Source of the DNA: Escherichia coli O157:H7
GTDB taxonomy: Bacteria; Pseudomonadota; Gammaproteobacteria; Enterobacterales; Enterobacteriaceae
DNA length: 64,000 bases
Assembly: GCF_013167455.1 (NCBI RefSeq)
Contig: NZ_CP038328.1
Strand: one strand, 5' to 3'
Part shown: positions 42,001 through 45,000 of the stretch, one piece after another
Layout: each line of letters opens with the position of its first letter
Position numbering within the stretch: the first letter of the stretch is position 1
Program-made: the position numbers

Positions 42001-45000
42001 TTTTTCATCGAATGAACTCCAAAAAACACACAATAATATTAGGCTTAGCCTAATGCAATTGTCAATAGGCTATGCCTAACGCTTCGAGAGTAGGTATTGC
42101 CTAATGCGATGCGCATAGGAGACTATTAAGCAATGCTTAGTGGTAAAGACTTAGGCCGAGCGATAGAGCAGGCCATTAACAAAAAAATTGCATCAGGAGC
42201 CGTCAAATCAAAGGCGGAAATCGCACGTCATTTCAAAGTCCAACCACCATCAATCCATGACTGGATTAAGAAAGGTTCGATAAGTAAAGACAAACTTCCA
42301 GAACTATGGCGTTTCTTTTCTGATGTGGTTGGTCCAGAGCATTGGGGGCTTAACGAATACCCCATACCAACCCCATCCACTTCAGATACAAAAAGTGAAC
42401 TTTTAGACATAAACAGCCTTTATCAAGCCGCCTCTGATGAAAAAAGAGCAATTGTGGCTTTCCTCTTATCTGGAAATGCTACGGAGCCTAGTTGGGTTGA
42501 TCATGACGTTCGTGCCTACATTGCCGCAATGGAAATGAAGGTAGCTAACTATCTGAAAAATCAAGAATCAAAACGGAAAAGCCAGAACATCACCAAGACA
42601 GGAACTTAAACTTATATGGTCCGACGGGAAATTCCTAGTTCCCGTTAGTTAACTCCTACTACCTCTCCCACAAACCATCACCTATTAGGTCGCACCCAAA
42701 TCATTAGGCGTAGCCTATTGACAAGCAATTAGGCATTTCCTATAGTTTTCCCATACCAACCCATCCCGTCCCACACAATACAGGGCAATACCTAGAGTTA
42801 CCCGGCAGTGGTCAGGGATTAAGTAGCCAGCCCGAGGCGTAAGAACATGACGGCAGGGTTCAACTTTAACTATGCAGCAGGTTTTTGTTCCGCTACCCCG
42901 GCGTTAAGGGGATATGAGGTCAGCATGGATACTCTTGATCTTGGCAACAACGAATCTCTGGTGTGCGGCGTGTTTCCCAACCAGGACGGCACGTTCACCG
43001 CGATGACGTATACCAAAAGCAAAACGTTTAAAACCGAATCTGGCGCGCGTCGCTGGTTAGCAAGAAACTCTGACTAATGAAATCTGGTAATTAAGGAATC
43101 CTCCACGGGGGGAGAGTGGTGCACACGCGCCGGACACAAGCAAGCATCCGGCATGCTCTTTAACAATCTGGATATCCATAACAGTAAAAATCTACAGATT
43201 GCCGTTCAGTTTTCTGGCCAACTCTTCAATAGATGGAGGTGATACGTAATCCGGATTTTTATTCATAAGAAACTGATTTTCACAGTACAGGCACCTGCTT
43301 TTATGAAAAAATTCATATTCTCTAACCGGGAATGGCTGAAGTATCGATACTATCTTTTGTCCAAAACATTTTGGACAAAGATGCATGATTATGCTGCCGC
43401 CGTTCACGGTTACCTCCTTCGAGTACACAAAAGTTCCCGACTCAAGTTGGCTAAGGATATAACCTTCCGTCTGAGCCTCAAAGTTTTCAAATTCTGCAAT
43501 TTTAGCTTTGAGAGAAGCATTTATTTCTTGATAAGTGCCCACCAGCTCAACGAGAGACACGCATTCGCGCTGAATAGATGCAAGCTTTGAGTTCAGTTCA
43601 CCAATAGCCGCATTTACTTCAGCTTGAGTTTTTGCCTCGTTCATTAGTTTTGCAATCTGGGCGGTTTCACGAATAGCCGTCATTGCTGCCGTTAATTCAG
43701 CGATCACATTCAATACTCTTATTGTTGTTGGGGATATCCAGATTAACAAGATCCTTGTTGTTGGGGAATAACGGGGACCACCTCGCCTGACGTGGTAAAA
43801 AGCAGGCACACAACACGAAAGCACACGGCGAGGGACACCATTAAATGGTGGCTTAAGCAATCACGCGAAGCGCAATCTGCCATTATGACCGATGAAATCC
43901 CGTTAGATGATGCACTGTTACAATTGCGGGAATTTATCGACGAAAACTCCGGTGAATTTTTTGTTCAGGTCTGGGGAAATGGAGCCAACTTCGACAACAC
44001 GATTTTGCGCCGTTCATACGAACGGCAGGGGATCCCCTGCCCGTGGCGTTACTACAACGATCGCGATGTACGCACAATCGTTGAGCTGGGGAAAGCCATA
44101 GACTTCGATGCCAGAACGGCTATTCCATTCGAAGGTGAGCGCCATAATGCACTTGATGACGCCCGTTACCAGGCAAAATACGTTTCAGTTATCTGGCAAA
44201 AACTGATCCCGAGTCAGGCTGATTTTTAATGTTCAACCGTCGCCAGTTGTCGTTGATATTCTGCAACTGGCGCGTTCCGGAGTGATAGCCATGAGCGAAC
44301 AGTACCTGATAACGCTCGACGAGTGGAAACCAAAACGGTTCAGTCTCCCAATAACAAACACTACCCTGGTGAAATACGGAAAACTAGGATACATCGTTCC
44401 AAGACCACAAAAAATTCGTGGGCGTTGGCTGATAGATCGCCGAGCAGTATTTGTTGGGCCTGGTGAAACGGGAATTGCGCCGGAAATTCATACTGGCGAT
44501 GATGATGCACTGAAGGAGATTTTAACTCATGTCACCGAGGCCACGAAAAAACAGCACTGACGTAGCCGGTCTTTACGAAAAGTTTGATCGCAGAACTGGC
44601 AGAGTTTACTACCAGTATAAAAATCCTGTGACTGGAAAATTTCACGGACTCGGAACAGACAAAGGTAAGGCAGAAAAAATCGCTTCCACAGCCAATCAGC
44701 GAATAGCTGCAGCAGAAGCTGAATATTTCATGCGCAAAATTGATGAAAGTCCGTCAGCAACAAAACGTCGGGGTATCAGATTAAAGGCATGGGTTGATCG
44801 ATATCTGAAAATACAGGACACGCGACTGAAAAATGGAGATATTGCAGCTACAACTCACAAAGAAAAAACTCGAATGGCTGCATACCTGGTTTCCCGTCTG
44901 GGAAACCACCCATTGAAAGAACTGGAAGTAAGAGACTTTGCATTAATACTGGATGAGTGGCTGGATAAAGACATGGTCAGTACAGCGAGAGTAAATCGTG

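What the first reader, a model, noticed from the sequence alone, without database searches (positions are those of the whole stretch)
42030..42745. Two operator arrays sharing the motif TTAGGC-N3-GCCTAA flank the RacR-like repressor gene
Three sites lie between the divergent repressor and cro-like genes at about 26-bp centre spacing (42039-42104), and two to three more lie just downstream of the repressor gene (42681-42743). This resembles lambda OR and OL and defines the immunity specificity of the prophage.
Basis: seen in the sequence. Interest (0 to 1): 0.45.

Follow-up and report, generated by a model that had tools for sequence, protein, structure and literature searches.

The report
RacR repressor operators flanking racR
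These are the two sets of repressor-binding sites of a Rac-type prophage in E. coli O157: the set between the repressor and cro-like genes has already been footprinted in E. coli K-12, and the set downstream of the repressor is its expected but apparently undescribed counterpart, so the finding is real but largely ordinary.

Summary
TTAGGC-N3-GCCTAA sites lie at 42039, 42065 and 42090 (0, 1 and 2 mismatches; centres 26 and 25 bp apart) and at 42704 and 42729 (1 and 2 mismatches; 25 bp apart). Sites with at most 1 mismatch number 3 against 0.10 expected by chance. The proposed third downstream site (42685) is only a conserved half-site.

The gene between the arrays is a true RacR orthologue, 92% identical to K-12 RacR. 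The window matches an E. coli O157 prophage next to potC.

The upstream array covers a TTGACA-18-TAATAT promoter for the ydaS/ydaT-like genes. The downstream pair covers a TTGACA-17-TATAGT promoter reading away from racR, in mirror-image geometry.

- **Conservation:** half-sites are essentially invariant across 46 and 41 distinct related sequences, while central triplets and inter-site spacers vary freely.
- **Distant relatives:** phages whose RacR is about 57-64% identical keep both arrays. Their downstream pair is always 25 bp apart but sits 0.34-3.1 kb from the repressor start.
- **Heteroimmune relatives:** they share the flanks but carry other repeats.

The lambda OR/OL reading is supported. 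The upstream motif is already published for K-12 Rac (EMSA, DNase I footprint). I found no description of the downstream array. Interest is low.

The parts
42039..42053 (.). Operator R1, the perfect palindrome TTAGGC-TTA-GCCTAA. It overlaps the -10 box and spacer of the leftward promoter.
   Evidence: The half-sites are essentially invariant in 46 distinct related sequences while the central triplet varies. It corresponds to the K-12 O1 site footprinted by RacR (PMC9638921).
42065..42079 (.). Operator R2, ATAGGC-TAT-GCCTAA. It abuts the -35 box of the leftward promoter, overlapping it by 1 bp.
   Evidence: It forms a 26-nt inverted repeat (88% complementary) with the downstream site L-A plus its -35 box (I1).
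42090..42104 (.). Operator R3, GTAGGT-ATT-GCCTAA, with a weaker left half.
   Evidence: It is the third of the three GCCTAA/TTAGGC repeats reported for K-12 (PMC5700373).
42126..42140 (.). Weak palindrome TTAAGC-AAT-GCTTAG over the racR start codon.
   Evidence: 3 mismatches. Klebsiella-type relatives carry TTAGGCAATGCTTAG at the same position, and Pseudomonas phages carry TTAGGCAATGCTTAC.
42151..42156 (+). Lone TTAGGC half-site inside racR (codons Leu-Gly).
   Evidence: It is mentioned for K-12 in PMC9638921. Its function is unknown.
42036..42065 (-). PR-like promoter: TTGACA (42065-42060), an 18-bp spacer, then TAATAT (42041-42036). It drives the ydaS-like and ydaT-like genes.
   Evidence: 10 of 12 consensus positions. 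It has the same boxes and spacing as the experimentally mapped K-12 PydaST promoter (PMC9638921, PMC11879457).
41685..42008 (-). ydaS-like, Cro-type HTH gene.
   Evidence: Its HTH is related to that of RacR: 41% identity over 29 aa, pairwise E 2e-6. It is 54% identical to the cro-position gene of Klebsiella phage KpF5.
41276..41701 (-). ydaT-like gene in the CII position. It lies outside the exchangeable immunity cassette.
   Evidence: It is retained in heteroimmune mosaics and replaced by an unrelated gene in KpF5.
42133..42609 (+). racR, the prophage repressor (158 aa).
   Evidence: NCBIfam RacR equivalog, 246.8 bits. 92% identical to K-12 RacR. No significant Pfam domain.
42623..42646 (+). 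Small conserved hairpin after the racR stop codon, a 7-bp stem with no T tract.
   Evidence: One G-C to A-U compensatory pair is seen in 3 of 10 sequences, which is weak evidence.
42680..42690 (.). Conserved ACCTA-T-TAGGT element. It may be a half-site and its role is unknown.
   Evidence: this stretch is conserved, while the presumed right half (42694-42699) is hypervariable. It is absent from the Klebsiella-type relatives.
42704..42718 (.). Operator L-A, TTAGGC-GTA-GCCTAT. It abuts the -35 box of the rightward promoter, overlapping it by 1 bp.
   Evidence: It is present in 81 of 82 E. coli-type loci and in 34 of 35 Klebsiella-type loci with enough flank.
42729..42743 (.). Operator L-B, TTAGGC-ATT-TCCTAT. 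Its right half supplies the start of the -10 box.
   Evidence: It always lies exactly 25 bp from L-A.
42718..42746 (+). PL-like promoter: TTGACA, a 17-bp spacer, then TATAGT. It reads away from racR towards the DUF1391 gene, xis and int.
   Evidence: 11 of 12 consensus positions. The boxes are nearly invariant in 41 distinct sequences. The same architecture is found in the Klebsiella-type relatives.
42925..43077 (+). First gene of the rightward (early-left-type) transcript, encoding a DUF1391 protein of the YdfA/YdaF type.

Best explanation
The two arrays are the right-type and left-type operators of a Rac-family lambdoid prophage integrated next to potC in E. coli O157.

Proposed mechanism:
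- Dimers of the RacR repressor bind the 15-bp palindromes (T/A)TAGGC-N3-GCCTA(T/A).
- At each array one site sits on the -10 box and spacer and the next sits against the -35 box. Occupancy therefore blocks RNA polymerase at two strong outward-facing promoters.
- The leftward promoter drives the ydaS (Cro-like) and ydaT (CII-like) genes.
- The rightward promoter drives the early-left-type operon. In this prophage that operon is shortened to a DUF1391 gene, an exonuclease remnant, xis and int.
- Further upstream sites (R3 and the weak site on the racR start codon) lie where the racR promoters were mapped in K-12, and would give autoregulation.
- YdaS has a related helix-turn-helix and probably reads the same sites.
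- racR, ydaS and the operators form one exchangeable immunity cassette.

Status of each step:
- Shown in the literature for K-12: RacR binding and repression at the upstream array.
- Shown here: orthology, identical half-sites, promoter overlap, and conservation.
- Inferred: RacR binding at the downstream pair, any cooperativity or looping between the arrays, and YdaS sharing the sites.
For: Occurrence and promoters:
- The sites are real and far above chance.
- Promoter overlap has identical geometry at both arrays. The site centre lies 5 bp upstream of the -10 box and 7 bp upstream of the -35 box. The 26 versus 25 bp site spacing tracks the 18 versus 17 bp promoter spacers.

Orthology:
- The repressor is a RacR equivalog, 92% identical to K-12 RacR.
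- The K-12 Rac arrays have the same half-sites with different central triplets.

Conservation:
- In 46 distinct upstream and 41 distinct downstream sequences, half-sites and promoter boxes are essentially invariant. Central triplets and inter-site spacers are hypervariable.
- Klebsiella phage KpF5 has a RacR 57% identical to the window's. It and 38 related viral loci (61-100% identical to KpF5's repressor) keep an upstream array.
- They also keep a downstream pair spaced exactly 25 bp, with the pattern ATTAGGC-N3-GCCTA|TTGACA-N4-TTAGGC-N3-RCCTAAYAT.
- That pair lies anywhere from +342 to +3117 relative to the repressor start. It travels with the promoter, not with the end of the gene.
- No other site with 2 or fewer mismatches occurs in those roughly 6.4-kb loci.

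Immunity cassette:
- Heteroimmune mosaics lack the motif and carry their own repeats at both positions. The right junction falls at about 42750, just after the -10 box.
- The RacR and YdaS HTHs are related, and the two genes co-travel in KpF5 while YdaT does not.

Literature:
- EMSA and ChIP (PMC5700373) and DNase I footprints (PMC9638921) on the K-12 upstream array.
- 40-70-fold derepression of ydaG, ydaF, kilR, racC and others when RacR is depleted (PMC6765115).
- An analogous OL/PL pair shown experimentally for the sister prophage CP-933P (PMC8630535).
Against: - No binding data exist for the downstream pair in any RacR-family phage that I could find. PMC11014345 states that the RacR regulon and the ydaFG operon are uncharacterised.
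- The invariant half-sites would also be expected if they were kept only as promoter parts: the -10 box is built from a half-site.
- The derepression seen in RNA-seq could be indirect or due to prophage excision.
- The rightward promoter is a consensus match with no mapped transcription start.
- RacR lacks a recognisable oligomerisation or S24 domain, so lambda-style cooperativity and looping are conjecture.
- The third downstream site does not hold up.
Confidence: 0.85

Rival explanations
1. The sites, especially the downstream pair, are read mainly by the Cro-like YdaS protein rather than by RacR. The downstream pair would then serve lytic-phase shut-off of early transcription, not lysogenic repression.
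For: - YdaS has an HTH related to RacR's.
- YdaS always accompanies the motif.
- YdaS is reported to autorepress in K-12 (PMC9638921).
- In CP-933P, YdaS and PaaR2 footprints overlap, and both proteins regulate PL933P (PMC8630535).
Against: - RacR footprints the same motif at low nanomolar concentrations in K-12 (PMC9638921).
- Early-left genes are silent in lysogens where only RacR is detectable, and they are derepressed when RacR drops (PMC5700373, PMC6765115).
- Shared reading by both proteins is more likely than exclusive reading by YdaS.
Confidence: 0.08
2. The downstream pair is a non-regulatory by-product: a duplicated copy of the PR core promoter whose half-sites persist only because they form parts of the -35-flanking and -10 sequences.
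For: - A 26-nt inverted repeat links the two promoter regions (I1).
- The -10 box overlaps a half-site.
Against: - The left half-sites TTAGGC of both L-A and L-B are not part of any promoter box, yet they are essentially invariant.
- Adjacent spacer bases vary freely.
- This holds across clades that are about 57-64% identical in the repressor.
Confidence: 0.04
3. The palindromes act as DNA or RNA hairpins (terminators or processing sites) rather than as protein-binding sites.
For: The simple terminator scan flagged site R1 as a hairpin followed by a T-rich run.
Against: - The stems are only 6 bp and AT-rich at their ends.
- The sites lie on promoter elements, upstream of the expected transcription starts.
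- Published footprints show protein binding (PMC9638921).
- No covariation test is possible because the half-sites never vary.
Confidence: 0.02

Closest known systems
racR-ydaS intergenic operators of the E. coli K-12 Rac prophage (Krishnamurthi 2017, PMC5700373; PMC9638921, 2022)
   Same: - Orthologous repressor, 92% identical at the protein level.
- Identical half-sites at all upstream positions.
- The same PydaST boxes, TTGACA-18-TAATAT.
- The same weak site over the racR ATG and the same internal half-site.
   Different: - This copy sits in a different prophage backbone at a different attachment site, next to potC, with DnaT-like/P-type replication genes and a shortened early-left operon.
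- Central triplets and inter-site spacers differ.
- The K-12 PracR2 -10 box AGTAAG is TTCGAG here, and the PracR3 -10 box GAGAAT is GAGACT here.
- The downstream pair is also present in K-12, but I found no description of it.
PaaR2/YdaS operators OR1-3 and OL1-3 with PL933P in cryptic prophage CP-933P (PMC8630535)
   Same: - The same gene order: repressor, divergent ydaS-ydaT, and a second operator set on a PL-type promoter downstream.
- Shared ydaT and PL-leader flanks (locus L089).
   Different: - A different repressor and a different operator sequence (GTTTAGTAA-type repeats).
- There is no TTAGGC motif in that locus.
- A paaA2-parE2 toxin-antitoxin pair lies between the repressor and PL.
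Phage lambda OR/OL with CI and Cro
   Same: - Bipartite operators on divergent PR/PRM and on PL.
- Sites 23-26 bp apart.
- The repressor gene lies between the arrays and has the same orientation as PL.
- The immunity cassette is exchangeable among relatives.
   Different: - 15-bp rather than 17-bp sites.
- Two robust sites rather than three at the left-type array.
- The arrays are about 0.65 kb apart instead of about 2.3 kb (the lambda figure is from my own knowledge).
- RacR has no S24 self-cleavage domain, so induction must work differently.
- In K-12, YdaS is reported not to repress racR (PMC9638921).
Small non-cleavable prophage repressors controlled by antirepressors (Gifsy GfoR/GtgR group; Lemire 2011, PMC3121763)
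   Same: RacR is named there as a member of this size class (about 150 aa) that is unlikely to self-cleave.
   Different: No antirepressor for RacR was identified here, and operator details are not compared in that paper.

Membership tests
RacR repressor/operator system of Rac-type prophages | The repressor is a RacR orthologue. | tested here: met
   NCBIfam NF049929 equivalog scores 246.8 bits against a cut-off of 200. 92% identical to K-12 RacR over 158 aa. RefSeq annotates it as racR.
RacR repressor/operator system of Rac-type prophages | Operators match the published consensus (T/A)TAGGC-n3-GCCTA(T/A) in the racR-ydaS intergenic region. | tested here: met
   Sites 42039 and 42065 fit exactly. 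Site 42090 departs in its left half, as the K-12 site does.
RacR repressor/operator system of Rac-type prophages | A divergent ydaS-ydaT operon is driven by the TTGACA-18-TAATAT promoter under the first two operators. | tested here: met
   compared with PMC9638921 and PMC11879457.
RacR repressor/operator system of Rac-type prophages | RacR protein physically binds these sites. | not testable with these tools
   Binding is shown by EMSA, ChIP and DNase I footprinting for the K-12 upstream array only (PMC5700373, PMC9638921). I found no data for the downstream pair.
Lambda-type bipartite immunity region (OR plus OL) | A second operator set overlaps an outward promoter on the far side of the repressor gene. 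| tested here: met
   The promoter matches 11 of 12 consensus positions and has two sites on its -35 flank and -10 box. The arrangement is conserved in 81 of 82 and 34 of 35 related loci.
Lambda-type bipartite immunity region (OR plus OL) | Repressor, cro and operators are exchanged as one cassette between related phages, which defines immunity. | tested here: met
   Three heteroimmune mosaics share the flanks but have different repressor/cro genes and their own repeats. The cassette is single-copy per genome.
Lambda-type bipartite immunity region (OR plus OL) | The repressor is of the CI/LexA type, with an S24 self-cleavage domain that RecA activates. | tested here: not met
   RacR has no Peptidase_S24 hit and no other significant Pfam hit. 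A Pseudomonas phage repressor with a RacR-like HTH does carry Peptidase_S24.
Lambda-type bipartite immunity region (OR plus OL) | Cooperative binding and long-range looping between the two arrays. | not testable with these tools
   The only evidence is spacing: 25-26 bp within arrays and about 0.65 kb between them.

The most novel reading that the evidence does not exclude
The downstream pair is a direct RacR target that no one has yet described.
- Through a promoter built from the operator itself, it places the whole early-left operon (kilR, recET and xis/int in K-12; xis/int about 1.5 kb away in this O157 prophage) under RacR.
- This fixed 25-bp module is a family-wide feature across Escherichia- and Klebsiella-type phages.
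- It may pair with the upstream array by looping around racR.
- It would supply the missing half of the RacR regulon. It would also explain why loss of RacR triggers Rac excision.
Probability: 0.7. Interest if true: 0.3.

Novelty: new member of a known kind. Interest (0 to 1): 0.2.

Why it matters
RacR is one of the few essential transcription factors of E. coli K-12, and its regulon is stated to be uncharacterised (PMC11014345).

- **A testable link:** a defined, conserved operator pair on the promoter of the early-left operon connects RacR directly to expression of kilR, recET and xis/int, and so to prophage excision.
- **O157 genomes:** these carry many related lambdoid prophages. The motif marks which single prophage answers to RacR.
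- **Limits:** none of this changes the general picture of lambdoid immunity. The upstream half is already in the literature.

Tried and rejected
- **Three mismatches:** the motif is not enriched at this level (18 observed, 22 expected), so such sites were not accepted on sequence alone.
- **Site at 54150:** this 2-mismatch site lies inside a long ORF outside the prophage and is within chance expectation.
- **Rfam:** nothing was found in or near the arrays or in the leader of the rightward transcript.
- **Leader RNA:** the conserved leader 42752-42930 folds no better than shuffles (z = +1.36). A structured leader RNA (put-like or nut-like) is not supported.
rejected. Its published site is TTGATT-N6-AATCAA (PMC9986795). 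YdaT stays in heteroimmune mosaics and is absent from KpF5.
- **Literature on the downstream array:** searches with RacR plus operator, kilR, ydaG or immunity region found no description of it. Subscription-only papers from the 1980s-1990s on sbcA, recE and kil could not be searched.
- **Pseudomonas phage relatives:** no convincing downstream pair was seen within 2 kb in the two examined. This was not pursued.
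Full report
**What is in the sequence**

Reading 41500-43300 and searching for TTAGGC-N3-GCCTAA gives three upstream sites. They lie at 42039-42053 (perfect), 42065-42079 (1 mismatch) and 42090-42104 (2 mismatches). Their centres are 26 and 25 bp apart. Two downstream sites lie at 42704-42718 (1 mismatch) and 42729-42743 (2 mismatches), 25 bp apart. An independent repeat search groups the same five as one family (D1).

In 300 dinucleotide-preserving shuffles, sites with at most 1 mismatch number 0.10 per window against 3 observed. No shuffle puts three sites with 2 or fewer mismatches within 70 bp. At 3 mismatches the motif is not enriched (18 observed, 22 expected).

**Genes and source**

The window is 100% identical to E. 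coli O157 strain FDAARGOS_293. The region is a lambdoid prophage whose integrase and excisionase abut potC.

The gene between the arrays (42133-42609, + strand) is a RacR equivalog. NCBIfam scores it 246.8 bits against a cut-off of 200, and it is 92% identical to K-12 RacR. It has no significant Pfam domain, and in particular no Peptidase_S24.

Divergent from it are a YdaS-like HTH gene (41685-42008, - strand) and a YdaT-family gene (41276-41701, - strand). Downstream on the + strand lies a DUF1391 gene (42925-43077).

**Relation to promoters**

A consensus scan finds exactly two promoter-like sites in 41600-43200, and each lies under an array.

- **Leftward promoter (- strand):** TTGACA (42065-42060), 18 bp, TAATAT (to 42036). 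It points at ydaS.
- **Rightward promoter (+ strand):** TTGACA (42718-42723), 17 bp, TATAGT (to 42746). It points away from racR.

The geometry is the same at both. One site is centred 5 bp upstream of the -10 box and the next is centred 7 bp upstream of the -35 box. The 26 versus 25 bp site spacing therefore simply follows the 18 versus 17 bp promoter spacers. A 26-nt inverted repeat, 88% complementary, links the two site-plus-(-35) segments (I1).

The leftward promoter has the boxes and spacing of PydaST, which was mapped experimentally in K-12 (PMC9638921, PMC11879457).

**Conservation among close relatives**

The K-12 Rac prophage has the same half-sites at every position, with different central triplets.

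From 80 IMG/VR loci, K-12, one phage isolate and the window, I obtained 46 distinct upstream and 41 distinct downstream sequences. Per-column variability shows that the half-sites and promoter hexamers are essentially invariant. The central triplets and the inter-site spacers are the most variable columns in the region. This is the pattern expected of protein-contacted half-sites.

Both downstream sites are present in 81 of 82 loci, and the exception is truncated.

For the third downstream site, only CCTATTAGGT is conserved. The supposed right half is hypervariable.

**Conservation among distant relatives**

Klebsiella phage KpF5 encodes a RacR 57% identical to the window's. A scan with the KpF5 protein gave 39 viral loci, 61-100% identical to it.

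- All 39 carry an upstream array at -67, -42 and -7 relative to the start codon.
- 34 carry a downstream pair spaced exactly 25 bp. Four more are truncated, and one shows a single site.
- The pair lies anywhere from +342 to +3117 from the repressor start, with other genes inserted in between.
- It always has the form ATTAGGC-N3-GCCTA|TTGACA-N4-TTAGGC-N3-RCCTAAYAT. The -35 box abuts the first site, and the -10 box is built from the right half of the second.
- No other site with 2 or fewer mismatches occurs in these roughly 6.4-kb loci.

The downstream pair therefore belongs to the promoter, not to the 3' end of the repressor gene.

KpF5 also has a YdaS homologue (54% identical), but an unrelated gene sits in the YdaT position.

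**Immunity specificity**

Three E. coli prophages share the ydaT flank and the leader of the rightward transcript with this one. They carry other repressor/cro pairs: a LexA-family CI, an unnamed pair, and the PaaR2/CP-933P type.

None has a TTAGGC-N3-GCCTAA site with 2 or fewer mismatches. Each shows its own repeats in both intergenic regions. The right-hand homology junction falls at about 42750, immediately after the -10 box.

The immunity core (42030-42750) is found in 1085 of 5426 complete E. coli genomes, at 1088 places, so it is almost always single-copy. The wider query, which includes the flanks, finds up to 9 places per genome and 6 in the source strain.

**Who reads the sites**

For K-12 the literature shows the following:

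- Three GCCTAA/TTAGGC repeats in the intergenic region, three EMSA complexes and ChIP enrichment (PMC5700373).
- DNase I protection by RacR, starting at the ydaST promoter at the lowest concentration, and the consensus (T/A)TAGGC-n3-GCCTA(T/A) (PMC9638921).

The RacR HTH and the YdaS HTH are related: 41% identity over 29 aa, including PPS-x3-WIK, with pairwise E 2e-6. YdaS probably shares the sites, as Cro does in lambda and as YdaS does with PaaR2 in CP-933P (PMC8630535). YdaT reads a different motif (PMC9986795).

**The downstream array in the literature**

I found no description of it. One paper states that the RacR regulon and the ydaFG operon are uncharacterised (PMC11014345).

Depleting RacR raises ydaG, ydaF, kilR, ydaE, racC, ralA and ydaC by 40-70-fold (PMC6765115). 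That fits direct repression of the rightward promoter but does not prove it. Older genetics points the same way: zygotic induction of rac recombination functions, cited in PMC5917428.

**Verdict**

The OR/OL interpretation is well supported.

- **Upstream half:** already known from the orthologous K-12 system.
- **Downstream half:** an expected but apparently undescribed part of the same system. Here it is shown by comparison to be a conserved, fixed-geometry operator-promoter module of the RacR family.

The system works like lambda's. It fails one lambda membership feature, because RacR has no self-cleavage domain, so induction must differ. It may work through an antirepressor, as proposed for repressors of this size (PMC3121763).

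Noticed in passing
window 42747-42925: The leader of the rightward transcript is conserved even in heteroimmune prophages with different repressors. It starts with a C-rich, G-poor stretch (CCCATACCAACCCATCCCGTCCCACAC) and folds no better than shuffled sequence (z = +1.36). It looks like a Rho-loading (rut) region rather than a structured RNA.
   Followed up: partly
window 42623-42646: A small hairpin (7-bp stem, no T tract) sits just after the racR stop codon. It is conserved among relatives, with one G-C to A-U compensatory pair. Its role is unknown.
   Followed up: partly
window 42083-42088 and 42119-42124: Two racR promoter -10 boxes mapped in K-12 are not conserved here. PracR2 AGTAAG lies in a hypervariable inter-operator spacer and reads TTCGAG. 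PracR3 GAGAAT reads GAGACT in this and most related loci (PMC9638921).
   Followed up: partly
window 42126-42140; L083 1994-2008; L085 and L086 1994-2008: A palindrome spanning the repressor start codon (TTAAGC/TTAGGC-AAT-GCTTAG/C) recurs in E. coli, Klebsiella-type and Pseudomonas phage repressor genes. Its upstream half is non-coding, so this is not only protein conservation.
   Followed up: partly
L085 2001-2852 (Pseudomonas phage vB_PaeS-D14H): This repressor has an N-terminal HTH 52% identical to RacR residues 1-75, fused to a Peptidase_S24 domain. Its intergenic sites resemble the RacR motif (TAAGGCATTAGCTAA, CAAGCCATTGCCTAA). The same DNA-binding domain therefore appears with and without a self-cleavage module.
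   Followed up: partly
window 42746-45647: The early-left operon of this prophage is very short. After the rightward promoter come a DUF1391 gene, an opposite-strand hypothetical gene (about 43192-43707), a truncated 3'-5' exonuclease pseudogene, and then xis and int. There is no kilR, racC or recET as in K-12.
   Followed up: no
L084 (Escherichia phage vB_EcoS-683R6, ON470595.1): This deposited phage record carries a RacR 90.5% identical to the window's and the same upstream and downstream operator sites. It would be a candidate for immunity tests.
   Followed up: no
window 36097-36271, 32307-32473, 10100-10166: There are three Rfam matches elsewhere in the window: sok antitoxin RNA (next to hokD), sRNA STnc100, and sar antisense RNA.
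   Followed up: no
E. coli genome search: At most three of 1085 genomes carry two copies of the RacR immunity core, and two copies lie on plasmids. These exceptions to single-copy immunity were not examined.
   Followed up: no
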